Below, in pieces: positions 44,476-61,317 of a DNA stretch of 64,000 nucleotides. The first letter of the stretch is position 1, and every line of letters begins with the position of its first letter. A program made the translations under genes and the position numbers. Source of the DNA: a virus; the IMG/VR virus record IMGVR_UViG_3300028654_000018, positions 4,508 through 68,507 of that record; one strand, written 5' to 3'. The notes beneath the pieces are model-generated. The model saw nothing but the letters and a program-made list of their open reading frames with translations. It searched no databases and was not told the DNA's origin.

Positions 44476-44713
44476 TATGCGTCCTTTAGACGTATTAACA
44501 CATGCTCTGCGATAAGCCCTTGATCTGATTGATCTAATTTTTGATATTTCTTCGAATATTCGTCGTGTCTCTCTTTAAAAATCTTTGCATCGAAGCCTTC
44601 TTTAGCTTCGCAATAAGCTAAAAGATCAAAATATAGGGCAATAAGCTCCATCGGATCTATCATCCGTCTAGAATACTATGAAATGCTTGATATGTCAAAG
44701 ATTAAATAATATC

Positions 44714-45049
44714 ATGAAGTTAAAAGAACTCCTTAATGAAGCGATGTCTAAAGATCAAGCCGTGGCTACTTTTGCTCGATTTGGCGTGCGCGATGCCCTG
44801 AAATATGCCGCGCCACAATTGAAAACGTTATATCTTGCATTAGCAAAGAAAAACCATCCTGATGCGGGTGGGTCGGTAGAGCGCATGACTGAAATCAATG
44901 CCGCATACGATGTTTTGAAGAAAGTTAAAGCTGGCTTGGAAGCGTTTGGGTTTAATCGTGACGATTTTCCGTATACAGGAACTAAGCATACAGACGCCCT
45001 AAATCAGTTTTGGGCGGCTGCTGAACGCGCACGAAACAATAAGAAATAA
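44714..45049 (+). CDS. J-domain (DnaJ-like) protein with MKLKELLNE leader
   Basis: LAKKNHPDAGG...EINAAYDVL; TAAATA 5 nt before the ATG at 44714. Confidence 0.8.
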   Translation: MKLKELLNEAMSKDQAVATFARFGVRDALKYAAPQLKTLYLALAKKNHPDAGGSVERMTEINAAYDVLKKVKAGLEAFGFNRDDFPYTGTKHTDALNQFWAAAERARNNKK

Positions 45050-45095
45050 TTTGACATAAATAACTATGAACTGTTAAAGTTCTATTTTAGAGAAT

Positions 45096-45170
45096 GTTCC
45101 TGTAGCTTAACGGTTAAAGCAGTAATCTCTAAAATTATCAATGTCGATTCGATTTCGACCAGGAACACCA
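45096..45170 (+). tRNA. Amber suppressor tRNA (anticodon CUA)
   Basis: Acceptor GTTCCTG/CAGGAAC-A-CCA; anticodon arm GTAAT-CTCTAAA-ATTAT; T arm GTCGA-TTCGATT-TCGAC; TTGACA at 45051. Confidence 0.9.
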
Positions 45171-45193
45171 ACAACTAACAAAAAGGATATACT

Positions 45194-45283
45194 ATGACTA
45201 TGTAGGTTTATAATTCTCGCGCTTCTCCTTGTAAGGTAATTAAACGATTAATTACACATCTTACAATCTCAAAGGAGAACAAC
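45194..45283 (+). promoter_or_regulatory. Amber-interrupted leader (MTM*VYNSRASP...) with SD-sequestering hairpin
   Basis: AAAGGA SD, ATG 45194, TAG 45203-45205, then open and in frame to ATG 45284; TTCTCCTT 45223-45230 pairs with AAGGAGAA 45272-45279. Confidence 0.75.
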
Positions 45284-45676
45284 ATGACTAACACGACACA
45301 TACACCAAAAACTAATTTTTTCAATACCAAAGAAGACTATATTAAATTTATTACTCACTGGAAAGCTTTAGCTAACAGCAAAAAAGCTACGTGCGAAGAA
45401 CATATACTTTACACAATTCTAAAAGGTAATGATTTTAATAAAGCATTTACTCCCGTTACAAATAAAACTAAAATAATACATAATTTAAGCGGAAATAAAT
45501 ATGGTAACATTGCTACTGCATATCATAGAGTTAGCTATGCACTTACAACTATCCAAGGACCGCTGCATCTAATTATTAAGTCAAGTTGGTATACGACACT
45601 AAATGATGATACTAAGGAAAAATTAAAATTTTTCTTCACTAATACAACATTTAAGAAAATAATCGGAGAAGAATAA
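45284..45676 (+). CDS. Hypothetical protein
   Basis: AAGGAG SD; HILYTILKG...KAFTPVTN; TAATG coupling to the next gene. Confidence 0.75.
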   Translation: MTNTTHTPKTNFFNTKEDYIKFITHWKALANSKKATCEEHILYTILKGNDFNKAFTPVTNKTKIIHNLSGNKYGNIATAYHRVSYALTTIQGPLHLIIKSSWYTTLNDDTKEKLKFFFTNTTFKKIIGEE

Positions 45677-46008
45677 TGAAAACAGAAACACAATATATCT
45701 ATGTCTTTGTTCGCAAAGATATGCTTGTTGAGTTTCAGATTGTTCAAGCTTGTCACGCATCGTGCGTGGCAGGCGAACAGTTTGGTGGTAGTAATTCACA
45801 TATGGTATTGCTAGGACTCTCTGGGCCAGATGAACTTGAATCTCTTACAGCATGGTTACAAGTTTATAAAATTCCATTTGTTACATTTTTTGAATCAGAT
45901 GATAATATGGGTAATTCTGCCGTAGCTACTTCTCCTATATCTGGAGAATCACGTAAAAATATTAAAAAAATAATCGATGATATGAAACTCGTTCTATGGA
46001 AATTATAA
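45676..46008 (+). CDS. Peptidyl-tRNA hydrolase, Pth2-like
   Basis: YVFVRKDM...VQACHA...MVLL...FFESD...SAVATSP, the PTH2-family pattern. Confidence 0.78.
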   Translation: MKTETQYIYVFVRKDMLVEFQIVQACHASCVAGEQFGGSNSHMVLLGLSGPDELESLTAWLQVYKIPFVTFFESDDNMGNSAVATSPISGESRKNIKKIIDDMKLVLWKL

Positions 46009-46440
46009 CATCTTTATCATGTGAATCGCCGGAGATTTGTCATGATAGTAAGACGGCAACTCTCCGGTTTTTGTAAATCCTAATTTTTGATATAATCCGA
46101 TAGCAGTAGTATTATCCGGGCGAACTTCTAACGTCAACGCAATTTTTCCTTTGCTCTTTGCAATAGATTCAACATGTGTAATTAGCTGTTGTGCTAATCC
46201 TCTACCACGAAATTCTTGAGATACGGTCAAAGAATATACTCTATCATTTTTACATTTTATTCTATGTAAAACAATTATAGATGCCGCAAGTTTATTATTT
46301 TCTTCATAGACAAAAATATCAGTCGTATTACTAGATAATAATCTAGCGAGTTGCGATTTTTTAAAGGCATCAGCACCAAATGCGCTTTGTTCTAGCGTCA
46401 AGAGTTCTGAAATATCATTTATTGTTGCTTGGCGAATCAT
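46003..46440 (-). CDS. GNAT acetyltransferase, RimI-like
   Basis: V-x3-FRGRGLA, LEVRPDN-x2-AIGLYQKLGF, YYHD. Confidence 0.88.
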   Translation of the reverse strand: MIRQATINDISELLTLEQSAFGADAFKKSQLARLLSSNTTDIFVYEENNKLAASIIVLHRIKCKNDRVYSLTVSQEFRGRGLAQQLITHVESIAKSKGKIALTLEVRPDNTTAIGLYQKLGFTKTGELPSYYHDKSPAIHMIKML

Positions 46441-47130
46441 TTAAATGTCCATATCGATATCATCTAGTTCTGCTATTGTTACTAGATCGCTGTCACGCTC
46501 ACATAACTTGATATATTTTTCTTTATCGGTTGACCATTCACTGCCTGTCCACCATTCAAATCCAGGAATCGATGCTTTATATATGCAACCACGTTCGCTT
46601 CCTTCGCCAATATATAAATGCGTTAAGCCAAGCGATTTGGCATACTCAACTTCTTTATCTTGAATTATTTTACCGATTGATAATTTTGGATTGTGATAAT
46701 TCCAACAAAACATATAACTTTCTAACGTGCCATTAAATTTAGAAAATTTAGTAAATGCTACAGGAATAGAATTTTCAAATACAACACCATAAACAGGGGG
46801 ATATAACAAATCATTAGTAATGGGATTGTAGCAGTCAGAAAAATTTTTATATGCGATGTAATCTTTATATATTTGCGTCAAACTGTCTTTGTCAAAATCA
46901 TCCAACGTGCCTATTTTAAACTCTAACTTTTTCGGCCATTTGTTCTTTACGACATGTTTCGCCAGATCAATTCTTACCGTTCGTGCTTGATACCATCCAC
47001 CATCAAGATAAATCCAACCATTTTCCATAGCATGTTTTTCTTCATCTGGCGCTACTTCAGCACGAACTAAGTTATATGTTATTTTTTCTTTTGATTGTTT
47101 GCTGAAAACTGTTGTAAACGTTATCTTCAT
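46441..47130 (-). CDS. Aminoacyl-tRNA--protein transferase-like (ATE1/Bpt fold)
   Basis: GW...RTVRIDL, LSIG, E-x2-YAK-x2-G-x2-HLYIG...YKA. Confidence 0.55.
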   Translation of the reverse strand: MKITFTTVFSKQSKEKITYNLVRAEVAPDEEKHAMENGWIYLDGGWYQARTVRIDLAKHVVKNKWPKKLEFKIGTLDDFDKDSLTQIYKDYIAYKNFSDCYNPITNDLLYPPVYGVVFENSIPVAFTKFSKFNGTLESYMFCWNYHNPKLSIGKIIQDKEVEYAKSLGLTHLYIGEGSERGCIYKASIPGFEWWTGSEWSTDKEKYIKLCERDSDLVTIAELDDIDMDI

Positions 47131-47882: not shown

Positions 47883-47966
47883 TGGTGCCCCGTGAGAGAT
47901 TTGAACTCTCATCCTTTCGGACCAGATCCTAAGTCTGGCGCGTATATCCAGTTCCGCCAACGGGGC
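47883..47966 (-). tRNA. tRNA-Leu(UAG)
   Basis: CCAGA-CTTAGGA-TCTGG; long variable arm; CCA. Confidence 0.92.
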
Positions 47967-48013
47967 ATATACTTATATATTAACTCTATGCATAATCTTT
48001 TACAATATTAAAA

Positions 48014-48088
48014 TGGCACCGCCGCTCTGGTTCTGCCCCGAGGATTTCAGTTTTGGAGACTGATATGATACTATTTCATCACAGCGAT
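48014..48088 (-). tRNA. tRNA-Trp(CCA)
   Basis: TCAGT-CTCCAAA-ACTGA; G73; atypical T loop. Confidence 0.85.
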
Positions 48089-48093
48089 ATAAA

Positions 48094-48168
48094 TGGTCTA
48101 ACGTTCGGAATTTGCATCCGATTCTCCGGCTTCACGGGCCAGGGGTTTACTTCATAACCTAACGTCAG
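48094..48168 (-). tRNA. tRNA-His(GUG)
   Basis: CTGGC-CCGTGAA-GCCGG; A73; C33. Confidence 0.85.
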
Positions 48169-48201
48169 CATAATAGTGAACTTTCGTTCACGTTCTAAAA
48201 A

Positions 48202-48277
48202 TGGTGGGTAGTCTCCGAATCGAACGGAGTTTTTTGGTTCTTCAAACCAACGCTATTACCAAATCAGCTAACTGCCC
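48202..48277 (-). tRNA. tRNA-Phe(GAA)
   Basis: TTGGT-TTGAAGA-ACCAA; CCA. Confidence 0.9.
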
Positions 48278-48278
48278 G

Positions 48279-48350
48279 TCGCCCATGCAGGCGTCGCACC
48301 TGCCGCTGCATGATTCCAAATCATACCGATCACTCCGATCTTTATGGGCG
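48279..48350 (-). tRNA. tRNA-Pro(UGG)
   Basis: TATGA-TTTGGAA-TCATG; acceptor CGCCCAT/ATGGGCG-A; no encoded CCA. Confidence 0.82.
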
Positions 48351-48390
48351 TAACTCTTTTATACTCCTTTCAAAAGTATATTTTAAACTT

Positions 48391-48467
48391 TGGTGAATCT
48401 GGTGAGATTTTAACTCACGATATCTCGATTAAGAGTCGAGTGCTTTAAACGACTAAGCTACAGATTC
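48391..48467 (-). tRNA. tRNA-Lys(CUU)
   Basis: CTCGA-CTCTTAA-TCGAG; CCA. Confidence 0.9.
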
Positions 48468-48478
48468 ATGCACTAACT

Positions 48479-48555
48479 TGGTAGGAGTAGAGGGATTTGA
48501 ACCCATCCTAATCCGGTTTAAAAGACCGGCCCACAAACCACTATGACATACTCCC
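48479..48555 (-). tRNA. tRNA-Lys(UUU)
   Basis: CCGGT-CTTTTAA-ACCGG; CCA. Confidence 0.88.
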
Positions 48556-48560
48556 GTAAT

Positions 48561-48638
48561 TGGCGCGTCTGGCGGGATTTGAACTCGCACTATGTTGGGT
48601 TCGAAGCCCAATGCCCTATCCAGTTGGGCGACAGACGC
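48561..48638 (-). tRNA. tRNA-Arg(UCG)
   Basis: TTGGG-CTTCGAA-CCCAA; CCA. Confidence 0.9.
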
Positions 48639-48646
48639 ATAAAAAA

Positions 48647-48734
48647 TGGCTCGCTAGGTTCGACTCGAACGAACAGTGCCTATTAAGGACGGAAGATTAA
48701 CAGTCTTCTGGGGTTACCATTTTCCTACTAGCAA
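48647..48734 (-). tRNA. tRNA-Asn(GUU) with long variable arm
   Basis: GAAGA-CTGTTAA-TCTTC; 17-nt variable region; G73-CCA. Confidence 0.82.
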
Positions 48735-48741
48735 ATAAACT

Positions 48742-48828
48742 TGGTCCGTAGTGTGGGATGTGCGCCCACTCACTCCTGCGAGAACTGGGTTACAGCCGGT
48801 TGCAACTCTCTCACTTTGCCGCCTACGG
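48742..48828 (-). tRNA. tRNA-Tyr(GUA), atypical
   Basis: ACCGG-CTGTAAC-CCAGT; long variable arm; T loop CGCACAT; apparent C1:G72, A73. Confidence 0.75.
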
Positions 48829-48867
48829 ATAATAAATTCTTTTTCTCCTTCTCAAAAATTTACATAA

Positions 48868-48900
48868 CAAAAAAGCCCGAAACTTTCGTTTTCGAGCTTG
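48868..48900 (-). terminator. Attenuator-type intrinsic terminator in front of the tRNA operon
   Basis: Minus strand AAGCTCGAAAAC-GAAA-GTTTCGGGCTT followed by TTTTGTT. Confidence 0.85.
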
Positions 48901-48926
48901 GTATTCTGAAAAATGTTTTCTAAGTT

Positions 48927-49034
48927 TTACATTTTTTGCACGCAGAATAGCAAGCCCGATTGTGGATAATTGGGTTTATGAAACGGACGGAAGAGTTGCC
49001 AGTTCAAGTTGCTATATGTTTGCTGCGTAATCAT
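48927..49034 (-). CDS. Putative leader peptide, 35 aa: MITQQTYSNLNWQLFRPFHKPNYPQSGLLFCVQKM
   Basis: Hand translation; ATG lies 5 nt after TAAATA; 3' part overlaps an antiterminator strand. Confidence 0.75.
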   Translation of the reverse strand: MITQQTYSNLNWQLFRPFHKPNYPQSGLLFCVQKM

Positions 49035-49039
49035 AATAT

Positions 49040-49103
49040 TATTTATCTTTCATATGTAATAAGTCATTTAAACGACTATATCGTATAATCTTCTATCTGT
49101 CAA
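49040..49103 (-). promoter_or_regulatory. Tandem promoters for the leader/tRNA operon: sigma70-type TTGACA-N17-TATAGT and late-type TAAATA
   Basis: -35 at 49098-49103, -10 at 49075-49080, TAAATA at 49040-49045. Confidence 0.7.
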
Positions 49104-49116
49104 GCAAATAGTGTAA

Positions 49117-49192
49117 TGGTGGACCTGGCCAGGATTGAACTGGCGACCTCAGAATTGCAAATCCTGCGCTCTCCCAACTGAGCTACAGGCCC
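49117..49192 (-). tRNA. tRNA-Ala(UGC)
   Basis: CAGGA-TTTGCAA-TTCTG; G3:U70; TATAAATA just upstream. Confidence 0.95.
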
Positions 49193-49233
49193 ATGTAATT
49201 ATTTATACACTCTATCAGACACATGCTTAACTG

Positions 49234-49587
49234 TCAATTATAATTATGAAAATAGCAATAGCCAGCAAGTCGAACTGTATCAGCGCCAACATCCATAATA
49301 AACGATGAATTATCTAGGTCATTTGTAAATGTTATCTGGATGAAATAATATTTTATCGGAATATATGTTCCTAAATTTCCTATACCAGTTTGAAATGCTT
49401 GTTCTATCGCGTTCTTCATATTATTAATCGGTTCTTCTATCTGAACATCTTCTAAAATTTGAATTATCGCATCAGGATACATGCACTTGACACAGCAACG
49501 TAAGCTATGTAATGCTGGAAATTGTTGAGTAACATGTGTGATCCATGTTCTCTCGCCAGTTCTGAAAAAATATTTCTGTTCTGTCAT
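49234..49587 (-). CDS. Hypothetical protein
   Basis: ORF track. Confidence 0.55.
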   Translation of the reverse strand: MTEQKYFFRTGERTWITHVTQQFPALHSLRCCVKCMYPDAIIQILEDVQIEEPINNMKNAIEQAFQTGIGNLGTYIPIKYYFIQITFTNDLDNSSFIMDVGADTVRLAGYCYFHNYN

Positions 49588-50090
49588 TTTTGCATCTCCG
49601 CAATTTTTTCTCTAAGTTGTTCTAAAGAAATCGGCGTATAATTAATCTGTTCTACAGAAACATTATAATATTTCGGATCGTTCATTGAACCGCCGTGTAA
49701 ATGTCCGTGAACATTAACGCCGAATCTATCTAAACATTCTTTAGCAATAGGAACGTGACTAAGAATCATATCTTTAAAATTGTGTGTCCCGTAAATTTCT
49801 TCGAAGTATTGCATCAATTCTGTTGTCGGCGCCGTATCATGATTTCCGCGAATGAGAATTTTCTTTCCCTTTAATCTATATACGATGGGCAAGCATCTAC
49901 GGTTCATTACAACATCGCCCATATGATATACTGTATCTTCATCTCGTACTACGCTATTCCATCGTTCTACGAGATGTTCATCATGTTCTTCAATTGATGG
50001 GAAATTTCTTAGCGGAGTTCCGTCTTCACGCAAAAACGTCAGGATGTTACGGTGGCCAAAATGTGTATCCCCAATGAAAAATATTGTCAT
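49584..50090 (-). CDS. Calcineurin-like metallophosphoesterase
   Basis: GDTHFGH, HMGDV, RGNHD, LSHVP, VHGHLH. Confidence 0.92.
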   Translation of the reverse strand: MTIFFIGDTHFGHRNILTFLREDGTPLRNFPSIEEHDEHLVERWNSVVRDEDTVYHMGDVVMNRRCLPIVYRLKGKKILIRGNHDTAPTTELMQYFEEIYGTHNFKDMILSHVPIAKECLDRFGVNVHGHLHGGSMNDPKYYNVSVEQINYTPISLEQLREKIAEMQK

Positions 50091-50572
50091 TTCAGCATAC
50101 CATTCTTTTTGAGTAATTCAATTTCTTCTTTTGTAAGATCATGATTAAACAACGTTTGAAAATAAAATTCAAACATTGCTACATCCGAAACATCTTCAAA
50201 AATTATTTCGTGATACTGCCATTCTTCTAAATCTTTTACAGGCGGTAATTTATTTATTTTATAATTTGTTATGCCACGCTGTTCAAGTATATGACGCAAT
50301 ATAATAAATTCATCTTCTGTCCAGTCATCACACAATAATCTATTTTCTGTTTGTGTTTTCAAAATTTTTGAAGCATGTTCAAAAAATCTATATCTATGAA
50401 TTGAAATATTATCATATTTAAATGACACTTCGGCCACTTCATCTGTCAATGAATTTAGGAAAAGATATTCGGAATCTACTCCGTCAAAACGAACACACGA
50501 ATCAAGATTATGAATCTTGTATAGAATTCGTTGTTCTATATTTTTTGTAAGAAGTTCGGTATTTGTGGTCAT
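50087..50572 (-). CDS. Hypothetical protein (DxAxF family)
   Basis: FEDVSDVAMFEFYF; start reassigned to MTTNT because the longer ORF overlaps a tRNA. Confidence 0.6.
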   Translation of the reverse strand: MTTNTELLTKNIEQRILYKIHNLDSCVRFDGVDSEYLFLNSLTDEVAEVSFKYDNISIHRYRFFEHASKILKTQTENRLLCDDWTEDEFIILRHILEQRGITNYKINKLPPVKDLEEWQYHEIIFEDVSDVAMFEFYFQTLFNHDLTKEEIELLKKNGMLK

Positions 50573-50620
50573 TGTGTTATAGTAACATATGAAGTGAGAT
50601 AATAAAAGATTTATTGAGGT

Positions 50621-50694
50621 TGGAACGAGTGACCAGAATCGAACTGGCGTGGTCAGATTGGAAATCTGAGGTTCTACCACTGAACTACACTCGC
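50621..50694 (-). tRNA. tRNA-Gly(UCC)
   Basis: TCAGA-TTTCCAA-TCTGA; U73-CCA; TATAAATA upstream. Confidence 0.95.
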
Positions 50695-50730
50695 ACTATA
50701 ACTATTTATATTAGTACAATATTTGATTGT

Positions 50731-51421
50731 TCACAAGTTATTTTTTATCTGATTATAAAATCTAAGTTTGAAAAAAGAATAATCCGCATCGTCCGTAAAA
50801 GTTAACGTAATTCGATCAGGTCGTAATGGATGATATCCATATCTCAACCAGGTATAATTCTCGATTCCCATATGTTTAAGAATATGATGCAAGACTTCTA
50901 TATTAGGAACAAATGATATTTCGAATATCATATCATGTTCTTCGAGAAATGCGACACTTCCAATCGAGAAATAAGACGTAGACGTTACCGTAGATCCGTC
51001 ATAATCAGATGCATACACGTCAACAATAGTCGCAAATCTATTCTCATCATCGATATAGATTTTTCTTTCTGGCGTGTCGAGAATTAACTGATTATCTGAC
51101 ATAAATTTATCAACAAGTTTGAGTTAGTGTTATTTGATCGCTCAAAGCGCGTATAATAAATTCTGCTTCATCAATATCTGACTTAAAACGCACAGATATA
51201 TTATAGTATTGTTCTCCAATCTCTTCGGATTTTATTTCGGCGTTTAATTTGAATCTAGATAGTCTTCGAATGGCTCTGTCGGATGACTTTTTGGTGTAGA
51301 ACTTCCATCTATACTGCTGGCAATCGTCAGCAAAAGATTCATAGCCGGTCAAAACTTGATGAACGTACCATTTTCTCTTGTGTGTTTTTGATCGAGTAAA
51401 TCGTGTTATATATTGCGGCAT
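50731..51421 (-). CDS. Two hypothetical proteins (DxAxF family; 50731-51102, 51110-51421)
   Basis: FTDDADYSFFKLRF and FKSDIDEAEFII. Confidence 0.6.
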
Positions 51422-51792
51422 GAGATTAGAGAAGTGAACGAAAAATATATGTCAATAAAACTACGATGTCAACTGTTGCAACCACAATAGATGCGTATGC
51501 CGCACGTAGTCTAACATTTACTAAATCTGGATTCTTTGCTACTTTATAACACATCAACAGTGATGCGAAGAAAAGTAAAGTTAGCAATGAAATAGTAAGC
51601 CACATGTTTATTCCTTAAAGGATAAAATATCCGACATACATTAAACTTACTCCCACGATAAAGCACAGTAATTCAATCTTGTGCTGCTCATTTTCAGAAT
51701 GAACACCAAGAATGCAAGCAATTATAATCAAAAATATCGCAGAAAATAAAATCATAGTTTGATTATACACTAGATTGAAGATAAGTCAAGTA

Positions 51793-54165
51793 TTAAAAGG
51801 TAGATACAGCAGTTCTAACCCAGGAGTCTGAGGCTATACAGAAATATGCAAATAAACCATCAACAAAACAATCGCCAGTCGTACCTGAAGAAGAAGAACT
51901 TGCTGGGGCAGATGCTACAAATCGAATAACTGTAAACCCACCAGTTGTTAATGTACTTAAAATATCTACTTCGCCGGTCGATAAATTACCGGTCAAAATA
52001 TTACCGATATTTAGATAGTTGCTCGTAGATGTAGTAGGAGTCGTTACGATATTTCCGGTTGCGCCAGGACCAATTAAAATATTATATGAACCAGTTGTTA
52101 GTGTGATACCAGATGTATTATACCCGGTTTTATATCCGAGCAACGTATTAATCTGACCACTTGTTACTCCTGCGCCTGATAATTGTCCTAATGCGGAGTT
52201 CGCGCTACCGCCTTGAATGCTTGTTAATGATGAAATACCCACCGCTGTATTCGACGTGGTGCCATTTGAACTGCCAGAAACTCCTTGTAGTGCTGAATTT
52301 CCTACTGCGACATTACCATTGCTTGATGTTCCGAGATACTGCGCTGCTTGATAGCCAATAATAGTATTACTACTGACATTTCCTGCAGTGTTTGCCATAG
52401 CTTGTGCGCCAATAACAGTATTTGATCCGCCACTTGCATTGTTGAGTAATGCACTATGTCCGATTGCGGTATTTCCCGTTCCAGTATTGCTTGCAGGCGT
52501 AGAACTTCCTTGTAGTGCATATGCTCCTACTGCAGTGTTGTACGTAATAAAACTTGTGGCAGAACTATTAGCATATAGCATTGATGAAAATCCTATCGCA
52601 GTACTCTCACTTCCCGCGAAGTTACGCTGTAGTGCAAATGTTCCGACCGTTGTATTATTAATACCCGATGCATTAAAACTATTTGAAGCCGCGCCGACGG
52701 CAGTGTTTTGATATCCAGTTGTATTGCCGATAAGGGAGCCATCGCCAATCGCAGTATTGTTATCTCCCGTATTTGATAACAATGTATTTGTCCCGACTGC
52801 AGTATTGGATGCGCTAGTAGTAACTGCACTAAGTGCTGAATTTCCTACGGCAGTATTATGTTGACCCGTTGTAAGGGCGTGTAATGATAGGCCACCAATG
52901 GCTGTATTGTTGGATCCTGCAAAACCAGCTCCACTTATTGCAAAGTTTCCGGAATTTATTCCTACAAAGGTATTAATGCCGCCCAATGTTCCTGACGGTG
53001 TAAAATTATGAATGAATGGCAATCCACCAAAATCAATTACGCCGACTGTACTGCTCGTTGTATTAGGCAATTTTAGAGTCGCGCTCAAATTAATATCGCC
53101 TGTAACATCTAACGCATATGACGGAGTATTATTATCGATACCCAAACGATGATTTGTATCATCCCAGAAAAATTTAGTATTATCTTGTGATATTGCGCCG
53201 GATGCTCCTGCAAATAAAACACTGCCGGTAGTTAAACTTGTGAGATTAATATTTGGAACTGATAAAATTCCAGTCAATGTTGGAGAAGCTGAGAATACAA
53301 CATTGCCACTTCCAGTAACTCCTGATACAACGGTTCCTTGAATTTTTGCAATGGTTGGATTCGGCAATGTTCCTGTTAAGTCGCCACCTAAAGATCCAAC
53401 ATTTGCTGCTGCTGCTCCAGACGCTATCATTGCTGCTGTGATGCCTGCCGTAGCAACCGAAATTGTTCCGGATGTCGTAATCGGATTCGGCATTGCTGTT
53501 AAACCAGAACCTGCGGTAATCGACGTGACTGTTCCAGAACTGCCACCAGAAGTTGTTAAATCAATTGTGGTTCCTGACGGAGTTATCGTGATACTAGAAT
53601 TAGATGATGTTAATGTTAAATTTCCAAATAATGAGTTTAATGTTGATACGCCTGCACTAGCTCCTCCAAGTGACCATGACGTTATTCCAGTTCCATCTGT
53701 TGTTAATACATAACCATTTGCTCCAGCATTTGACGGCAATGTTAATGACCAACTAGAAAATGATGCCGGCGTTTTTAGTGTAATTGTGTCGAGGAGTGGG
53801 GCAGTGCCTATATTGTTACTCGAACTACTTAAATTCATATTTCCGATTACATCTAAACTCTGTAATGGATTTGGATTGTTGATGCCGACAAAATGATTTG
53901 TTCCGCTAATGATAAACGGAGTGGATGTTAAATCTGCGGTCGAAACGCCAAATGATCCTCTGGCAACCGCAGGATAATTGATATTGGTCCCTAATAACCA
54001 TTGATGATGATCGCCATCTAAAATACCAGCAGAGCGAAAGCTTATAGATGCTTCTAGCGTTGTTGAGGCTCCATTAGGATCGTTTACAGGATCGTAGCCT
54101 ATAAGTTTTAAGATACCATTTGTTGGTAATCCCGAAAGAGTTAAAACACTTTTATATATTGTCAT
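51793..54165 (-). CDS. Gly/Ser/Thr/Asn-rich fibre or beta-solenoid virion protein (tail fibre/adhesin-like)
   Basis: Many N-T-A-(V/I)-G-x2-(A/S)-L repeats of about 14 residues; LGI-x3-P-x3-LDV-x-G fibre motifs; late promoter. Confidence 0.7.
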   Translation of the reverse strand: MTIYKSVLTLSGLPTNGILKLIGYDPVNDPNGASTTLEASISFRSAGILDGDHHQWLLGTNINYPAVARGSFGVSTADLTSTPFIISGTNHFVGINNPNPLQSLDVIGNMNLSSSSNNIGTAPLLDTITLKTPASFSSWSLTLPSNAGANGYVLTTDGTGITSWSLGGASAGVSTLNSLFGNLTLTSSNSSITITPSGTTIDLTTSGGSSGTVTSITAGSGLTAMPNPITTSGTISVATAGITAAMIASGAAAANVGSLGGDLTGTLPNPTIAKIQGTVVSGVTGSGNVVFSASPTLTGILSVPNINLTSLTTGSVLFAGASGAISQDNTKFFWDDTNHRLGIDNNTPSYALDVTGDINLSATLKLPNTTSSTVGVIDFGGLPFIHNFTPSGTLGGINTFVGINSGNFAISGAGFAGSNNTAIGGLSLHALTTGQHNTAVGNSALSAVTTSASNTAVGTNTLLSNTGDNNTAIGDGSLIGNTTGYQNTAVGAASNSFNASGINNTTVGTFALQRNFAGSESTAIGFSSMLYANSSATSFITYNTAVGAYALQGSSTPASNTGTGNTAIGHSALLNNASGGSNTVIGAQAMANTAGNVSSNTIIGYQAAQYLGTSSNGNVAVGNSALQGVSGSSNGTTSNTAVGISSLTSIQGGSANSALGQLSGAGVTSGQINTLLGYKTGYNTSGITLTTGSYNILIGPGATGNIVTTPTTSTSNYLNIGNILTGNLSTGEVDILSTLTTGGFTVIRFVASAPASSSSSGTTGDCFVDGLFAYFCIASDSWVRTAVSTF

Positions 54166-54195
54166 ACTGTATTTATTTGATTGTAAAGGAGAAGT

Positions 54196-54573
54196 TTATT
54201 GGATAGGTTCAACTACATATGCCCAAATCTCTTTTAGACCGAGCGCACTTGCTGTTCTAAGGCGATGATTCCCGTCAATAACTATCCCATTTTCTACGAT
54301 AATCGGCGGAATAGTTTTCGGATCCATTTTTAAATATCGCTTTTGCTTTTTAGGATTGATCGCATTGGCAAACGCCGGACCAGCTTTTAAAGAAGAAATA
54401 GGCACTAATTTTAACACGGCTTTACAATCTCGAAAATATTCCTCGACTCGTTCTTCGTCGATATCATCCGCAAAAGACGCCATGTATGTCATAATATCAG
54501 CCGCGTTCGATAATACAGGTTCATAATCGCACGATGCTTTTAAAGCAGATTCAAATAATTCATTGATTTTCAT
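54196..54573 (-). CDS. ParB/Srx-like domain protein with MKINELFE leader
   Basis: PPIIV...VIDGNHRL; TAAATA 5 nt before the ATG. Confidence 0.75.
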   Translation of the reverse strand: MKINELFESALKASCDYEPVLSNAADIMTYMASFADDIDEERVEEYFRDCKAVLKLVPISSLKAGPAFANAINPKKQKRYLKMDPKTIPPIIVENGIVIDGNHRLRTASALGLKEIWAYVVEPIQ

Positions 54574-54597
54574 ACAATTATTTATTATAATGGCCGA

Positions 54598-55071
54598 ATG
54601 ACAATTATCCTCATAGGTATGCCAGGTAGCGGAAAAACTACGATTGGTAAAGAGCTATCAAAGAATCTCGGCATTCCTGCAATCGACACGGACGATTTAA
54701 TAGTTAAGAGAACTGGAAAATCTATCAAAGATTTATTAAATGAGAATTTTAATCAAGTAGAAGCAGATGTAGTAAAATCTATTTCTCTGAAATATGAAGG
54801 TATTGTATCTACTGGCGGAAGTGTGGTTTACAGTGACGAAGCTATGATACATTTAAGAGAAATCGGACGAGTTATCTATCTCCAAGTTCCAATAGAAGAA
54901 TTAATCACACGAATAAAAAATTTTGATGCGCGTGGCATTGTAATTCGGCCAGATCAGACATTTGAAGATTTGTATAATGAACGTCGAGTATTATATGAAA
55001 GATGGGCAGATACAACAATTCACAATGATAATCTTGCAGATACGATTTCGATTATTAGTAAAAATATTTAA
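54598..55071 (+). CDS. aroK: Shikimate kinase
   Basis: LIGMPGSGKTTIG, DTD, STGGSVV, R-x2-LYERWAD. Confidence 0.88.
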   Translation: MTIILIGMPGSGKTTIGKELSKNLGIPAIDTDDLIVKRTGKSIKDLLNENFNQVEADVVKSISLKYEGIVSTGGSVVYSDEAMIHLREIGRVIYLQVPIEELITRIKNFDARGIVIRPDQTFEDLYNERRVLYERWADTTIHNDNLADTISIISKNI

Positions 55072-55074
55072 AGC

Positions 55075-55150
55075 TGGTATCGCTACGGAGAATTGAACTC
55101 CGATTGTTCGGGTGAAAACCGAATTTCCTAGACCATTAGAAGATAGCGAC
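55075..55150 (-). tRNA. tRNA-Glu(UUC)
   Basis: TTCGG-TTTTCAC-CCGAA; CCA. Confidence 0.9.
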
Positions 55151-55151
55151 A

Positions 55152-55225
55152 TGGCGCTCAATAGGAGAATCGAACTCCTGTATAGAAATAGACAATTTCT
55201 CGTCCTACAATTGAACGAATTGAGC
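55152..55225 (-). tRNA. tRNA-Asp(GUC)
   Basis: AGAAA-TTGTCTA-TTTCT; G73-CCA. Confidence 0.88.
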
Positions 55226-55267
55226 GAGTGATAAATGTAACAAATTACGTTACAAATGTCAATATAT

Positions 55268-55636
55268 TTAGAAGTGAACTTTGAAGAGTACAAATGCTTC
55301 ATGTGTTGAAACAACCGGCAACGATCCAGTTATATCATTGCGTTGATACATGACAACTTCTACACGAAAACGTTTATCGAAACCAGGAATCGGACGTTCA
55401 TATTTTAAAACCGATTCTTGTTCTGCTGGCGATCTCATAAGTCCAACTTGAATTTCATCGTCAATTGGTTTTGTTATTCTGTCAACTACCCAACCCGGCG
55501 CCGGAGTATGAATAGTCCACGATGCAACATCATTGTCTATTACTACATTTTTTTGTGTGATAGAAATTGCGGATGATGCTATAGCGGTAGAAGATGATAA
55601 AATAATAAAAAGTAATGTTAAGAAAATATGTTTCAT
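55268..55636 (-). CDS. Secreted hypothetical protein
   Basis: Signal peptide MKHIFLTLLFIILSSSTAIA. Confidence 0.6.
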   Translation of the reverse strand: MKHIFLTLLFIILSSSTAIASSAISITQKNVVIDNDVASWTIHTPAPGWVVDRITKPIDDEIQVGLMRSPAEQESVLKYERPIPGFDKRFRVEVVMYQRNDITGSLPVVSTHEAFVLFKVHF

Positions 55637-55702
55637 ACATTAACGTTAACACTATTTTTTAATATCGTCAAGAAATAAGCATACTGCACTGCATCAATTA
55701 AA

Positions 55703-55776
55703 TGGTATCGCCAAGTGGTACCTCCCCACTTTTCCCGCCTTATGAAAGCAGTACATTAATTTTATGTTTTGGCGAC
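55703..55776 (-). tRNA. tRNA with CAU anticodon (elongator Met or Ile2), atypical
   Basis: CTGCT-TTCATAA-GGCGG; acceptor GTCGCCA/TGGCGAT-A-CCA; deviant T loop. Confidence 0.72.
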
Positions 55777-55781
55777 ATAAA

Positions 55782-55855
55782 TGGAACAAGATATGAGAAT
55801 TGAACTCATGCCCCCGACTTGGCGAGCCGGAATACTACCACTGTACTAATCTTGC
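55782..55855 (-). tRNA. tRNA-Gly(GCC)
   Basis: CCGGC-TCGCCAA-GTCGG; U73-CCA. Confidence 0.88.
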
Positions 55856-55864
55856 ACTAAAAAC

Positions 55865-55939
55865 TGGTTGACCCGGGGAATTCTGCCATCCCAACCTTTC
55901 GGTTATCGACCGAATGCTCTGCTTTTGAGCTACGGGTCA
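55865..55939 (-). tRNA. tRNA-Ile(GAU)
   Basis: TTCGG-TCGATAA-CCGAA; CCA; deviant T loop. Confidence 0.85.
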
Positions 55940-55964
55940 ATTATATTATACTATCAAATATTTA

Positions 55965-56519
55965 TCAAACAAAATTCAGCAATGCAGTTGCAAGAGCGCC
56001 ACCAAATACAACTCCGGTCAAAAACTCACCCCATTCGCCGCCACTGATAGCAAAATGACCTGCCTCAAATGTAAATCCAAACACAGTAAATCCAGATGTA
56101 GAAATTTTGCTATCTACGCCATTTAAGAAAGTCCAGCCAATATAATATGCTAATCCTTGAAGCATTGCAAGTGGCAACACAATCAAAACAGACGGAATAA
56201 AATATGCAATTGGCGCGAGAATTAATAGCATACGAGCAAGTCCAACTCCTGCCATTCCAACAACAGAGAATAGTGAATTATTACTTTGAAAAATTGAGTG
56301 TGGAATTAACAATCCCACATATGCCATAACGCCGCATAACAATCCAACTTGCCAATCCGCACATAATCCCCATACGGCAACTGGAATCGCCCAAAATAAA
56401 AGTCTCGCTAAAAATGTACTTCCAGTTCCTAGAAAACCACCACGACAACGATAGAAAAATCCGCCAAGCAAGGCCACAAATAGAATAACGAGAATGTTTA
56501 ACATAATATATCCTTTCAA
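55965..56519 (-). CDS. Multi-pass membrane protein
   Basis: Several hydrophobic helices; YRCRGG and EWGEFLTG motifs. Confidence 0.65.
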   Translation of the reverse strand: MKGYIMLNILVILFVALLGGFFYRCRGGFLGTGSTFLARLLFWAIPVAVWGLCADWQVGLLCGVMAYVGLLIPHSIFQSNNSLFSVVGMAGVGLARMLLILAPIAYFIPSVLIVLPLAMLQGLAYYIGWTFLNGVDSKISTSGFTVFGFTFEAGHFAISGGEWGEFLTGVVFGGALATALLNFV

Positions 56520-56531
56520 AAAATTAAAAAC

Positions 56532-56888
56532 GATTTCAGATCATCTATAAGCGGGATTCTGTATCTCTTTCGAGACGACTATCATTCATCTGGGACTCAC
56601 ATTACTGTAAGCCTCAAGCCATCAACCCGACAGCAACGGAAGAATTCGTTATTACTGCCCTATTCGATGTTGCTTCTAGCAAGGTTTCCAGTGCCTAAAT
56701 TATTACTAATTTAGCGGTAGTCTCTTACACTACCTTTTTCACCCTTACCAGTTGACTTAAACTGGCGGTTTGTTTCTGTGTACTATCTCTTAGATCACTC
56801 TAGCTGGACGTTATCCAGTGCTATTTTCTTCTGAAGGCCCGACTTTCCTCTATGTTTTCACACAGCGATAGTCCAACGATCTGAAATC
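56532..56888 (-). ncRNA. rnpB: RNase P RNA (bacterial type)
   Basis: GAGGAAAGTCGGGC near the 5' end, ACAGAATCCCGCTTA near the 3' end (P4), terminal P1 GATTTCAGATC/GATCTGAAATC; about 357 nt; TTGACT promoter upstream. Confidence 0.93.
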
Positions 56889-56927
56889 TTGTATAGTATA
56901 GTAGATATAGTTAATGAAGTCAAGAAA

Positions 56928-57260
56928 CTATTTTGTCATGATACTATTAATTGAAACTTCCAGACGTTCTTTCATCTCTTCGATAACATCAAGAATTTCA
57001 GATTTAAAAATGTTTACAGCCGAAGTATCAGACTTTAACGCCCACATTCCGCCAGTAATTCTTCCGTCATTAATGGCAACACTTCTCGCATCAAATAATC
57101 TAGTTTTACGTAAGTGCATCGGCAATCCCTTAACCGTGATAAAATATCCTGGCGCTCCCGCTTCATCTTTATCGAGACCCGCATAATGTTCTTCTGTGAT
57201 TTTTATTGTTTCGCCAACTAGTGCATTGACTTTGAACCAAACTAATGCAACATTTGTCAT
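56928..57260 (-). CDS. Hypothetical protein
   Basis: ORF track. Confidence 0.55.
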   Translation of the reverse strand: MTNVALVWFKVNALVGETIKITEEHYAGLDKDEAGAPGYFITVKGLPMHLRKTRLFDARSVAINDGRITGGMWALKSDTSAVNIFKSEILDVIEEMKERLEVSINSIMTK

Positions 57261-57321
57261 GATTATATACCTATGTTAAATTATGAAGCAGTGTAACACG
57301 TATTTGAATACAGTCAAGCGT

Positions 57322-57933: not shown

Positions 57934-58262
57934 AATAAATCCATAACAGTTTTACTATGCAATAATAACATATTGCGGCGCAATGTCAAGGTCATATTTT
58001 ATTAATGATTTATTAACTATTTGAAAATTATAACTGTTGAATTTGCAGTTTGTTGAATATCTGCTGATTGATCTTTTGGTTGAGCAAAGTTGCTATTTTT
58101 AATAGATGCCGTTACTGGCGTTTCAAATCGTATTGAAGCGGTCATTGTTGATTTAGCTGCATATACGTTGCTAGGCAGTACGAGTGTACAAAATAATATT
58201 TTGATTATTGTGTTCATGTGCTGATTATAACATAATGAGGTTAGATGTCAAGTGTTAAGAAA

Positions 58263-58336
58263 TGGTCGGAAACCAGTGAATCGAACACTGACCAAGGCCA
58301 TGTAAAAGCCCCGCACTGCCATTATGCTAGTCTCCG
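58263..58336 (-). tRNA. tRNA-Val(UAC)
   Basis: GGGCT-TTTACAT-GGCCT; A73-CCA. Confidence 0.82.
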
Positions 58337-58338
58337 AA

Positions 58339-58414
58339 TGGTGGCAGGTGAAAGATTTGCACTTCCGACCTTCTGGTTATGAGCCAGACGAGCTAACTAC
58401 TGCTCCAACCTGCT
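58339..58414 (-). tRNA. tRNA-fMet-like (CAU)
   Basis: TCTGG-CTCATAA-CCAGA; 1:72 mismatch and TGGAGCAG D-arm start typical of initiator tRNAs. Confidence 0.85.
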
Positions 58415-58438
58415 ATAATATTTACGCACTTAAATTAG

Positions 58439-58530: not shown

Positions 58531-58543
58531 AATATTTTATTTA

Positions 58544-59144: not shown

Positions 59145-59153
59145 AATAATCTC

Positions 59154-61305: not shown

Positions 61306-61317
61306 GTAGTATAAAAA

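What the first reader, a model, noticed from the sequence alone, without database searches (positions are those of the whole stretch)
45051..46008. Amber-suppressor tRNA, UAG-interrupted RASP leader and SD-hiding hairpin controlling a Pth2 operon: a stop-codon read-through switch
Seen: a TTGACA promoter precedes a CUA-anticodon tRNA (45096-45170). An SD-led ORF ATG-ACT-ATG-TAG starts 23 nt later and continues without stops (VYNSRASPCKVIKRLITHLTISKENN), exactly in frame with the ATG at 45284. The post-UAG segment folds into a long hairpin (TTCTCCTT/AAGGAGAA, GTAAG/CTTAC, GTAATTAA/TTAATTAC, ACGA loop) that buries the SD of 45284. That gene is coupled by TAATG to a Pth2-like peptidyl-tRNA hydrolase. 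Other genes here end normally at TAG, so the genome is not amber-recoded. Established: RAPP/RAGP motifs (ApdA, ApdP, SecM) arrest ribosomes and expose downstream SDs. Inference: only when UAG is read through (suppressor outcompeting RF1, or RF1 impaired) does the ribosome reach RASP, whose codons overlap the anti-SD strand, and open the hairpin. This would induce a hydrolase that recycles peptidyl-tRNA, making the module a sensor of termination efficiency.
Basis: partly seen in the sequence, partly recalled or inferred. Interest (0 to 1): 0.88.

Follow-up and report, generated by a model that had tools for sequence, protein, structure and literature searches.

The report
Stop-readthrough switch before phage Pth2-like operon
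A fragment of a giant phage carries a tRNA that reads the UAG stop codon next to a tiny leader gene with an early UAG, so two downstream genes are probably translated only when that stop is read through; the same design recurs in many distant phages and I found no paper describing it.

Summary
This includes the tRNA(CUA) at 45096-45170, the SD-led ATG-ACT-ATG-TAG, and an open post-amber frame running in frame into the ATG at 45284. It also includes an anti-SD/SD hairpin, a TAATG junction and a Pth2-fold protein (AF2 pLDDT 94, TM 0.72-0.76 to solved Pth2).

On its own the hairpin is weak (z -1.85). The support comes from other phages. Homologues of the 110-aa protein have a same-strand suppressor tRNA in 31 of 50 metagenome loci. 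The 130-aa gene lies directly upstream in 24 of 50. I found 24 short leaders with an early stop followed by an anti-SD/SD hairpin. The gate codon matches the local suppressor anticodon in 18 of 18 cases, including one UGA/UCA and one UAA/UUA. In 20 of 50 loci, and in cultured phages GAP32, ME3 and RsoM2USA, the Pth2-like gene itself starts M-x(1-4)-TAG.

My reading is a translational attenuator gated by stop-codon read-through (about 0.72). Arrest at RASP, the enzyme's activity and the physiological role remain untested.

This scan has reported the same design before on other genomes. Six literature searches found no published description.

The parts
45051..45080 (+). Sigma-70-like promoter match (TTGACA, 18 nt, TAAAGT, TG before the second hexamer) ahead of the tRNA
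   Evidence: 10 of 12 matches. This is a consensus match only; the AT-rich region gives 18 such sites against 8.4 expected.
45096..45170 (+). Amber-suppressor tRNA (anticodon CUA) with encoded CCA. It is the only tRNA of the window on the + strand.
   Evidence: ARAGORN; Rfam RF00005 at 66.8 bits. The other 19 tRNAs lie on the - strand at 47883-62162.
45184..45187 (+). Shine-Dalgarno (AGGA) of the leader, 6 nt before the ATG at 45194
   Evidence: Read.
45194..45205 (+). Leader mini-ORF ATG ACT ATG TAG. The gate codon UAG is at 45203-45205 and is followed by G.
   Evidence: It aligns with the ATG ATG TAG of leaders in L031, L041, L043, L047 and L050. The base after the gate is a purine in 45 of 46 gates.
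45206..45283 (+). Post-amber frame (VYNSRASPCKVIKRLITHLTISKENN), open and in frame with ORF130. The RASP codons are at 45218-45229.
45223..45279 (+). Hairpin. The anti-SD arm 45223-45229 pairs with 45273-45279. Inner helices are 45230-45235/45260-45265 and 45236-45243/45248-45255, with loop ACGA.
   Evidence: MFE and centroid folds (about -16 kcal/mol for the hairpin; z -1.85). The SD region has a pairing probability of 0.68, against a control mean of 0.56.
45272..45277 (+). Shine-Dalgarno (AAGGAG) of ORF130, buried in the 3' arm
45284..45676 (+). ORF130: an all-helical protein of a phage family of unknown function, the usual upstream partner of the Pth2-like gene
   Evidence: 188 representatives at E <= 1e-3, with N-termini aligned from residue 1. 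phrog_22448, E 1e-6. AF2 pLDDT 85.9 with no PDB fold match. A family member lies upstream of the ORF110 homologue in 24 of 50 loci.
45676..46008 (+). ORF110: a divergent Pth2-fold protein whose start overlaps the ORF130 stop (TAATG)
   Evidence: AF2 pLDDT 94.4. Foldseek top hits are all Pth2 (3erj, 1q7s, 2zv3, 1xty, 1wn2), TM 0.72-0.76. The family profile hits PDB 24bt_A (peptidyl-tRNA hydrolase) at E 2e-4. 26 of 39 members hit Pfam PTH2 weakly; the window's own protein does not.

Best explanation
The locus is a translational attenuator whose input is read-through of a stop codon.

Proposed mechanism (inferred):
1. One transcript carries the suppressor tRNA, a three-codon leader ending in UAG, and the ORF130 and Pth2-like genes.
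2. The SD of ORF130 is locked in a hairpin whose 5' arm lies 20 nt beyond the UAG.
3. A ribosome released by RF1 at the UAG does not reach that arm, so the operon stays closed.
4. If the phage's tRNA(CUA) decodes the UAG, the ribosome runs into the arm. It may pause at R-A-S-P, whose Ser and Pro codons are the anti-SD.
5. The freed SD, or in this phage direct in-frame continuation, gives ORF130. The TAATG overlap then gives the Pth2-fold protein.

Shown here: the sequence anatomy, the fold of ORF110, the conservation of the design, and the matching of gate codon to anticodon.

Inferred: read-through, the pause, hairpin opening, and what the two proteins do.

My best guess for the role is that the two proteins are made in proportion to suppressor activity, to deal with its consequences for translation.
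For: 1. Linkage to a suppressor tRNA. A protein-pattern scan that ignores tRNAs found 50 loci with ORF110 homologues.
- 31 of the 50 hold a suppressor tRNA, always on the gene's strand; in 26 it lies within 1 kb.
- Of the 19 loci without one, only 2 have 6 kb on both sides.
- In IMG/VR, 10 of 13 new loci hold one.

2. Gene pair. An ORF130 relative lies directly upstream in 24 of 50 loci.

3. Leaders. I listed 24 leaders with an ATG, 0-6 further codons, then a stop and a short post-stop ORF; most have a recognisable SD before the ATG.
- In 17 of the 18 folded, the MFE pairs a 5' arm starting 13-40 nt after the gate with the SD of the next gene.
- The 18th (L010) shows this pairing in its centroid fold.
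- Sources.

4. Gate matches anticodon in 18 of 18 leaders that have a suppressor in the same locus.
- 16 are TAG with CUA.
- L034 has TGA with UCA, and L007 has TAA with UUA.
- L011 has TGA both in its leader and inside its Pth2-like gene.

5. A second placement of the gate. In 20 of 50 loci (16 different sequences) the Pth2-like gene itself begins M-x(1-4)-TAG, right before the conserved YxYxFxRxD N-terminus. In several there is no alternative start after the TAG. The same holds in cultured GAP32 (MAQ-TAG), RsoM2USA (ML-TAG) and ME3 (MT-TAG). All three encode a tRNA(CUA).

6. Context of the gate. The base after the gate is a purine in 45 of 46 gates.

7. SD pairing probability. ORF130-type starts average 0.75 (10 of 19 at 0.8 or more). 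73 control SD-led ORFs of the same loci average 0.56 (12% at 0.8 or more). Mann-Whitney p = 1.2e-4.

8. Stall-type endings after the gate: RGPP (L007, L010/L022), RAPP (L024), RSPP (L003), and xPP-stop in L016, L027, L039, L037, L044, L026/L038, L105, L112 and L120. In L037 and L026/L038 the PP codons lie outside the anti-SD arm.

9. Literature. RAPP and RGPP are robust arrest cores, and RSPP is partially permissive in mutants (PMC12992588, abstract and passages).

10. Within the contig this is the only early-stop mini-ORF followed by a long open frame.
Against: - The window's hairpin alone is not significant (z -1.85). Its SD pairing probability (0.68) is only moderately above the controls.
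- RASP has not been shown to arrest ribosomes, and the nascent chain there would be only 11-12 residues.
- The post-amber frame runs through the SD and the ATG. Ribosomes that do not pause would therefore mask the start and make an extended ORF130 that no homologue shows.
The window-type leader itself therefore has no close comparison.
- The loci are not phylogenetically independent: several are near-duplicates. The p-value and the counts are optimistic.
- Formal covariation within the one alignable leader group is small: 3 of 22 pairs with compensatory changes, covariation term +0.17.
- L004 and L018 have full flanks and no suppressor. RaK2 has neither a gate nor a nearby suppressor.
- The amino acid carried by the tRNA is unknown.
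- No experiment supports any step.
Confidence: 0.72

Rival explanations
1. The TAG is a sense codon here. The unseen four fifths of the genome would be amber-recoded, and leader plus ORF130 would be one protein with an N-terminal extension. On this view there is no switch.
For: The leader is in frame with ORF130 and no stop lies between them. CheckV puts the contig at 21% complete, so late genes are unseen. Eight ORF110 homologues carry internal in-frame TAG or TGA, so some relatives probably are recoded.
Against: - In one search, the closest full-length relatives (P0006, P0008) align from residue 1 of both query and subject, all 45 aligned ORF130 sequences begin at the same Met column.
- 17 of 111 ORFs of the contig end in TAG, and TAG-as-sense gives no special gain.
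- In 10 of 18 leaders the post-gate ORF is out of frame with the next gene, and most end at a second, different stop.
- Cultured standard-code phages carry the same gates.
Confidence: 0.08
2. The mini-ORF works without read-through, as a minigene or ordinary uORF. Very short peptidyl-tRNAs would drop off or terminate slowly at the stop, and that event, not suppression, would control or justify the Pth2-like gene.
For: The pre-gate peptides are 1-7 residues long. From memory, not tested here: lambda bar minigenes of this size cause peptidyl-tRNA drop-off that is toxic when Pth is limiting. The output gene has a Pth2 fold.
Against: - This reading does not explain why the stop codon follows the anticodon of the linked suppressor (18 of 18).
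- It does not explain why codons after the stop keep stall-type endings at the anti-SD.
- It does not explain genes that cannot be translated at all without read-through.
Confidence: 0.07
3. Coincidence in this window. The hairpin would be a tRNA 3'-processing or stability element, the ATG-ACT-ATG-TAG would be noise in AT-rich DNA, and ORF130 would be translated constitutively.
For: Hairpin z is -1.85, with 8 of 200 shuffles as good. Promoter-like matches are common here. No terminator-like site and no expression data are available.
Against: The leader aligns base for base with leaders of loci whose proteins are only 30-40% identical. The design recurs with unrelated sequences. The early-stop-plus-long-frame pattern is unique in the contig.
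Confidence: 0.06

Closest known systems
Leader-peptide translational attenuation with an SD-sequestering hairpin (ermCL/ermC, cat and cmlA leaders; recalled, not looked up here)
   Same: A short SD-led leader ORF. The position of the ribosome in the leader decides whether a hairpin hides the SD of the next gene.
   Different: There the signal is an antibiotic that stalls the ribosome. Here the signal would be whether a stop codon is read through by a dedicated tRNA.
RAPP/RGPP/RAGP arrest peptides (ApdA, ApdP, ApcA, SecM) and N-S-P-stop or N-A-P-stop peptides. Sources: PMC12992588 and PMC10987492 (abstracts and passages).
   Same: The motif sits near the end of a uORF upstream of the regulated gene. 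Relatives of this leader carry RGPP, RAPP, RSPP or Pro-Pro-stop.
   Different: Those peptides are secretion-monitoring substrates with N-terminal signals. Here the chain is about 10 residues long, has no signal, and the motif is reached only after a stop codon. The window has RASP, which I saw only in a list of SecM-cluster motifs.
prfB (RF2) autoregulation by an early in-frame UGA (recalled, not looked up here)
   Same: An early in-frame stop codon acts as a gauge of termination versus an alternative decoding event.
   Different: prfB uses a +1 frameshift and regulates the release factor itself. Here no frameshift is needed and a suppressor tRNA is supplied in cis.
Stop-codon-recoded phages with suppressor tRNAs. 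Sources: bioRxiv 10.1101/2021.08.26.457843 (listing and abstract) and PMC13037316 (passages).
   Same: Phage-encoded tRNA(CUA), and the idea that read-through controls when genes are translated.
   Different: There TAG is scattered through many late genes. Here a standard-code contig has a single gated leader. The listing shows 0 occurrences of 'peptidyl-tRNA hydrolase' in that preprint.
Synthetic unnatural-amino-acid switch with a TAG placed in a leader peptide (Liu et al. 2011, as described in review PMC6412442; passages)
   Same: Translation of a leader beyond an inserted UAG is required to express the downstream gene.
   Different: That switch is engineered and acts on transcription through a rut site. 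This one is natural and acts on an SD hairpin.
Canonical Pth2 of jumbo phages (PMC7824862, passages; RaK2 ORF188 in PMC3622015, passage)
   Same: The same fold. RaK2, GAP32 and RsoM2USA each carry both a canonical Pth2 and this divergent family.
   Different: This family is shorter. It has Q or F where canonical sequences have the Lys before AQxxHA. It mostly scores below or near Pfam's cut-off, and it is the one tied to suppressor tRNAs.

Membership tests
Pth2 peptidyl-tRNA hydrolase (Pfam PF01981) | Pth2 alpha/beta fold | tested here: met
   AF2 pLDDT 94.4. The ten best Foldseek PDB hits are all Pth2 entries, TM 0.66-0.76, E down to 6e-6.
Pth2 peptidyl-tRNA hydrolase (Pfam PF01981) | Sequence match to the family model above the curated cut-off (23 bits) | tested here: inconclusive
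   The window's protein gives no hit at E <= 0.1. 26 of 39 family members hit weakly, best 7e-6. The RaK2 and RsoM2USA members reach 25.9 and 24.5 bits.
Pth2 peptidyl-tRNA hydrolase (Pfam PF01981) | Active-site residues. That a Lys before AQxxHA and an Asp in the D-x-G strand are catalytic is recalled from the Sulfolobus enzyme, not looked up. | tested here: inconclusive
   In the alignment with three canonical phage Pth2 proteins, QxxHA and the Asp (D75, in EPD) align. The Lys position holds Q or F in this family.
Pth2 peptidyl-tRNA hydrolase (Pfam PF01981) | Hydrolysis of peptidyl-tRNA | not testable with these tools
   Needs an enzyme assay.
Suppressor tRNA | Cloverleaf with anticodon complementary to a stop codon, U33 and a purine at 37 | tested here: met
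   ARAGORN gives anticodon cta. The Rfam alignment shows the loop C-U-C-U-A-A-A and a full acceptor stem with encoded CCA.
Suppressor tRNA | Charged and active at UAG in the host | not testable with these tools
   Its nearest paralogue in the window is Lys(CUU) at 66% identity, which is not diagnostic.
RAPP-like arrest peptides | R-A-P-P, R-G-P-P or R-A-G-P core at the stall site | tested here: not met
   The window has R-A-S-P. RASP appears only in a list of motifs from uORFs clustered with SecM (PMC10987492) and has 0 occurrences in PMC12992588. Relatives do carry RGPP, RAPP and RSPP.
RAPP-like arrest peptides | Ribosome stalls at the motif | not testable with these tools
   Needs toeprinting or peptidyl-tRNA detection.
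Leader-peptide translational attenuator | SD-led short uORF plus a hairpin that sequesters the SD of the next gene, with the uORF overlapping or abutting the 5' arm | tested here: met
   for the window. The same holds in 17 of 18 leaders by MFE.
Amber-recoded phage (genetic code 15) | In-frame TAG in many conserved genes, with coding density restored when TAG is read as sense | tested here: not met
   Coverage is 0.879 under the standard code and 0.894 with TAG as sense. 17 of 111 ORFs end in TAG. There is only one gated long frame. Only 21% of the genome is held.

The most novel reading that the evidence does not exclude
Suppressor tRNAs of standard-code giant phages are not relics of recoding. 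They would be the trans-acting key of a dedicated circuit.

- The tRNA's only essential targets would be early stop codons that gate an ORF130/Pth2-like pair.
- The leader would measure how often a given stop is read through, that is the balance between suppressor and release factor.
- The two proteins would then adjust translation accordingly. For example, they might clear peptidyl-tRNAs and ribosomes that have run past natural stops, or act on the suppressor itself as feedback.

This would answer the question left open for phage XacN1, whose authors could not find targets for its CUA tRNAs. It could also be the stepping stone from which full stop-codon recoding evolved.
Probability: 0.35. 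Interest if true: 0.92.

Novelty: new variant of a known kind. Interest (0 to 1): 0.85.

Why it matters
- **An open question becomes testable.** Many cultured giant phages that use the normal code carry suppressor tRNAs with no known purpose. The XacN1 authors state that they could not identify target genes (PMC5852040, passage). This locus and its relatives name concrete targets.
- **Annotation.** Genes starting M-x-TAG are truncated or missing in GenBank records such as GAP32_397 and the RsoM2USA gene. The gating explains why.
- **A new natural input for attenuators.** If the mechanism holds, it is a natural example of gene control by stop-codon read-through through a dedicated tRNA. That adds a new input to the leader-peptide attenuator repertoire and gives a natural counterpart of synthetic amber switches.
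- **A function for a divergent enzyme family.** It points to a role for a second, divergent Pth2-fold family and for an all-helical partner with no known fold relative.
- **Easy to test.** The parts are small and can be moved into laboratory E. coli or a cell-free system.

Tried and rejected
- **Close relatives in phage collections.** A blastn of 44600-46500 against the phage collection found nothing. Single-protein scans of IMG/VR with ORF110 and ORF130 found no relatives.
- **DNA of the four closest ORF110 homologues.** I used a profile scan of metagenome contigs instead.
- **Test for recoding in the fetched loci.** Comparing coding density under three reassignments did not discriminate, so I dropped it.
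- **CATAAATA as a recurrent promoter motif.** It occurs once in the window against 8.5 expected. Rejected.
- **Structured RNA upstream of the leaders in L031-type loci.** It has no Rfam match. Rfam found only tmRNA, RNase P-like RNA and tRNAs elsewhere in those loci.
- **ORF130 function.** There is no Pfam hit. PDB sequence hits have E >= 0.13, and Foldseek hits have E >= 3.7.
  - The ESM Atlas gave a T4 RegA-type 'translation repressor' cluster at 0.90 with 155 shared features. That is in the range of chance hits and has no Pfam support. I treat it as a lead only.
- **ORF130 relatives in IMG/VR.** A scan with a seven-sequence ORF130 alignment returned one distant locus (L092) without the module.
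- **Complex prediction of ORF130 with ORF110.** It returned no answer (score 0.00). This is no evidence either way.
- **Sequencing runs.** No RNA holder is listed. The six holders are DNA metagenome runs, and two may be the source of this DNA. The laid contigs show the leader unchanged in the two near-identical holders. One low-depth variant contig could not be followed further.
- **Formal covariation.** In the alignable leader group it is small.
- **Supplements.** I did not ask for any. The supplementary tables of PMC5852040 (tRNA list), PMC10987492 (motif lists, including RASP) and the recoding preprint may bear on the claims about targets and motifs.
- **'Not in print'.** This rests on searches. 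One search found no paper holding both 'Pth2' and 'suppressor tRNA'. Subscription journals are not covered.
Full report
**What the window is.** It covers 64 kb of a 68.5-kb linear virus contig with 36% G+C. CheckV rates the contig 21% complete. It carries 20 tRNA genes. It also carries T4-type terminase, family B DNA polymerase, ThyX and RNA ligase genes. The polymerase is 39-40% identical to those of giant phages such as Atu_ph07, RaK2 and CBB. The contig is therefore a fragment of a giant T4-superfamily phage. Runs that hold it near-identically are DNA runs labelled rhizosphere metagenome, and no RNA holder is listed.

- The tRNA(CUA) is at 45096-45170. ARAGORN calls it and Rfam scores it 66.8 bits, with a canonical anticodon loop and an encoded CCA.
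- It is the only tRNA on the + strand. The other 19 form arrays on the - strand.
- A sigma-70-like match (TTGACA, 18 nt, TAAAGT) lies at 45051-45080. Such matches are frequent in this AT-rich stretch.
- AGGA and ATG ACT ATG TAG follow 23 nt after the tRNA. The frame after the TAG is open and in frame with the ATG at 45284.
- Folding pairs UUCUCCU (45223-45229) with AGGAGAA (45273-45279), which is the SD of ORF130. Two inner helices lie between them.
- ORF130 and ORF110 overlap as TAATG.
- The contig reads well in the standard code: 17 of 111 ORFs end in TAG.
- By itself the hairpin is only marginally better than shuffles (z -1.85).
- Within the contig, this is the only SD-led mini-ORF with an early stop followed by a long open frame: 156 codons, with the next best at 47.

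**The two proteins.**

ORF110:
- It has no Pfam hit of its own and no PDB sequence hit.
- Its family profile reaches a solved peptidyl-tRNA hydrolase at E 2e-4, and 26 of 39 members hit Pfam PTH2 weakly.
- An AlphaFold model (pLDDT 94.4) matches only Pth2 structures at the top, with TM 0.72-0.76.
- Cultured phages carry this family beside a canonical Pth2.
- Aligned with three canonical phage Pth2 proteins, the family keeps QxxHA and the Asp of its EPD motif. It has Q or F where the canonical sequences have a Lys. That this Lys is catalytic is recalled, not checked.
- The fold is therefore settled but the activity is not.

ORF130:
- It belongs to a family with 188 representatives at E <= 1e-3, whose N-termini line up with the ATG at 45284.
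- Its model is all-helical (pLDDT 85.9) and has no fold relative in the PDB.

**Comparative evidence.** A scan of metagenome contigs with protein patterns of the ORF110 family returned 50 loci at 32-42% identity. This search knows nothing about tRNAs. Three observations follow.

1. *Suppressor tRNAs.*
   - 31 of the 50 loci hold a suppressor tRNA, always on the gene's strand. In 26 it lies within 1 kb, either upstream or 60-90 nt downstream.
   - Many of these loci contain no other tRNA.
   - Of the 19 loci without one, 17 are cut short on one side or both.
   - An IMG/VR scan gave 22 loci, of which 9 duplicate earlier ones. 10 of the 13 new loci hold a tRNA(CUA).
2. *The gene pair.* An ORF130 relative lies directly upstream of the Pth2-like gene in 24 of 50 loci.
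3. *Early stop codons,* which occur in two placements.
   - Placement (a): in 20 of 50 loci (16 different sequences) the Pth2-like gene itself begins M-x(1-4)-TAG, immediately before the conserved N-terminal strand. In several there is no start codon after the TAG.
   - Placement (b): a short leader lies upstream of ORF130, or upstream of the Pth2-like gene where ORF130 is absent. It has an ATG, 0-6 codons and a stop, then a short post-stop ORF; most have a recognisable SD before the ATG. I listed 24 such leaders, counting the window.
   - The window's leader aligns base for base with the ATG ATG TAG (G/A)TT TAT... leaders of L031, L041, L043, L047 and L050.

**Four features argue that these leaders are read-through switches.**
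- *The hairpin recurs.* In 17 of the 18 leaders folded, the MFE structure pairs the SD of the next gene with a 5' arm that starts 13-40 nt after the gate codon. L010 shows the pairing in its centroid fold. The sequences of these hairpins are unrelated between leader types. SD pairing probability is higher than for 73 control SD-led ORFs in the same loci: mean 0.75 against 0.56, p = 1.2e-4. The loci are not independent.
- *The gate codon follows the anticodon.* It matches in 18 of 18 leaders with a suppressor in the same locus. 16 are TAG with CUA. L034 has MRKL-TGA-VYQDTS-TAA with a tRNA(UCA). L007 has ML-TAA-...IRGPP... with a tRNA(UUA). L011 has TGA both in its leader and inside its Pth2-like gene.
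- *The base after the gate is constrained.* It is a purine in 45 of 46 gates: 28 G, 17 A, 1 C. From memory, a 3' purine favours amber suppression in E. coli. I did not check this.
- *The post-gate peptides end in stall-type sequences at or just before the 5' arm.* These are RGPP (L007, L010/L022), RAPP (L024), RSPP (L003), and NSPP-, KSPP-, NGPP-, NNPP-, CRPP- and TKPP-stop in others. The window's nearest leader type has NSS- or NST-stop. In L037 and L026/L038 the Pro-Pro codons lie outside the anti-SD arm, so they are not merely a by-product of a CU-rich arm.

*Literature on these motifs.* RAPP and RGPP are robust arrest cores, and RSPP is partially permissive in mutants (PMC12992588, abstract and passages). 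N-S-P-stop and N-A-P-stop peptides stall with the stop codon in the A site (PMC10987492, passages).

**How this window differs from its relatives.**
- The tRNA sits upstream in the same apparent transcription unit.
- The post-amber frame has no second stop and runs in frame into ORF130.
- The motif is RASP, with the Ser and Pro codons forming the anti-SD.
- The in-frame relation is not a conserved property: it holds in 8 of 18 leaders. ORF130 homologues show no N-terminal extension.
- L003, L007 and L010/L022 are the nearest in logic. Their read-through frames also cross the hairpin. They end in an ATGA or TGATG overlap with the next start, or in frame with it.
- RASP itself is unproven as an arrest core.

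**Geometry.** The pairing positions come from the folds; the ribosome footprint is recalled. With UAG in the A site, the P-site codon starts at 45200, and about 15 nt downstream are covered. The arm starting at 45223 therefore stays paired. With Ser (45224-45226) in the P site and Pro in the A site, the ribosome would cover the whole 5' half of the hairpin and free the SD.

**Cultured phages.**
- tblastn finds the family in 30 phage records, all giant phages of Klebsiella, Erwinia, Yersinia, Cronobacter, Pectobacterium, Serratia, Xanthomonas, Ralstonia and Acinetobacter, plus one uncultured phage.
- GAP32 starts its gene MAQ-TAG and the record annotates only a truncated CDS. RsoM2USA starts ML-TAG and has no CDS there. 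ME3 starts MT-TAG and has a tRNA annotated 'anticodon CTA' 440 nt upstream.
- GAP32 and RsoM2USA each encode one tRNA(CUA) elsewhere in their tRNA region.
- RaK2 has the gene without a gate and without a nearby suppressor.
- The XacN1 paper reports two CUA tRNAs whose targets the authors could not identify (PMC5852040, passage).

**Rivals.** I considered three: a recoded genome with a fused protein, a minigene acting without read-through, and coincidence. Each is set out with its evidence in the Rival explanations section. None explains the codon-anticodon matching together with genes that cannot be translated without read-through.

**Novelty.**
- Six full-text searches found no description of a suppressor-gated leader, nor of a link between Pth2 and suppressor tRNAs. 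No paper in the library holds both 'Pth2' and 'suppressor tRNA'.
- A comparative survey of jumbo phages notes PTH2 but not this link, with 0 occurrences of 'suppressor' (PMC7824862).
- This scan's own notes show the same design reported before on at least 69 other genomes. I reached my results before reading them and re-tested their main claims here.
- The kind of device, a leader-peptide attenuator possibly with an arrest motif, is known. The input, read-through of a stop codon by a tRNA encoded beside it, is not. I therefore class it as a new variant of a known kind.

**Verdict.**
- The read-through switch is the best explanation at about 0.72.
- The RASP pause (about one in three), the enzymatic activity and the physiological purpose are open.
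- Interest is high, because the hypothesis is specific, can be tested with a handful of constructs, and addresses a stated open question.

Noticed in passing
L031 462-814 and 1920-2245; L047 1496-1850 and 3577-3933; L044 1530-1853; L041 1-308: Loci that carry the module also encode a phage tmRNA (permuted type, up to 131 bits). In L031 and L047 there is also an RNase P RNA-like match below the gathering score (61-67 bits against 100). Translation-rescue RNAs therefore cluster near the module.
   Followed up: no
L047 about 5405-5500; L031 about 5470-5565; L043 and L041 equivalents: A roughly 21-bp long-range helix with compensatory changes between loci encloses a small hairpin, directly upstream of the leader's SD. 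This is the position the tRNA occupies in the window. It has no Rfam match.
   Followed up: partly
alignment A6 columns 50-64 (for example L047 about 5560-5575): An invariant CATTGCAATTTTG sits in the apical loop of the SD-hiding hairpin in all seven leaders of the MM-TAG-VYFNSS type. It is absent from the window's hairpin.
   Followed up: no
L052 (GAP32) 2501-2824; L053 (RsoM2USA) 2501-2815: GenBank annotation misses or truncates the Pth2-like gene because of the TAG at codon 3-4. GAP32_397 starts 90 nt late, and RsoM2USA has no CDS there.
   Followed up: yes
window 46003-47130, - strand: Two genes converge on the operon and overlap its last 6 nt. One is a GNAT acetyltransferase (Acetyltransf_1, E 1e-16). 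The other is a 229-aa protein with a faint match to the C-terminal domain of arginyl-tRNA-protein transferase (E 0.077, below cut-off). They may be further aminoacyl-tRNA-related enzymes.
   Followed up: no
window 45247-45384 (run X1, record 3): A low-depth 248-nt contig from the same sample lies on this stretch with 16 differences. It continues upstream with a variant 5' arm in which the Pro codon of RASP is changed synonymously. A related strain seems to co-occur there.
   Followed up: partly
46 gate codons in the window and loci: The codon after the gate is GTT in 17 of 46 gates, and the base after the gate is never T. The codon before the gate is a Leu codon in 18 of 46.
   Followed up: partly
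window 44678-45049, + strand: A small J-domain-like protein (DnaJ, E 6.5e-5, below the Pfam cut-off; phrog_13942, E 5e-12) heads the short + strand island that ends with the Pth2-like gene.
   Followed up: no
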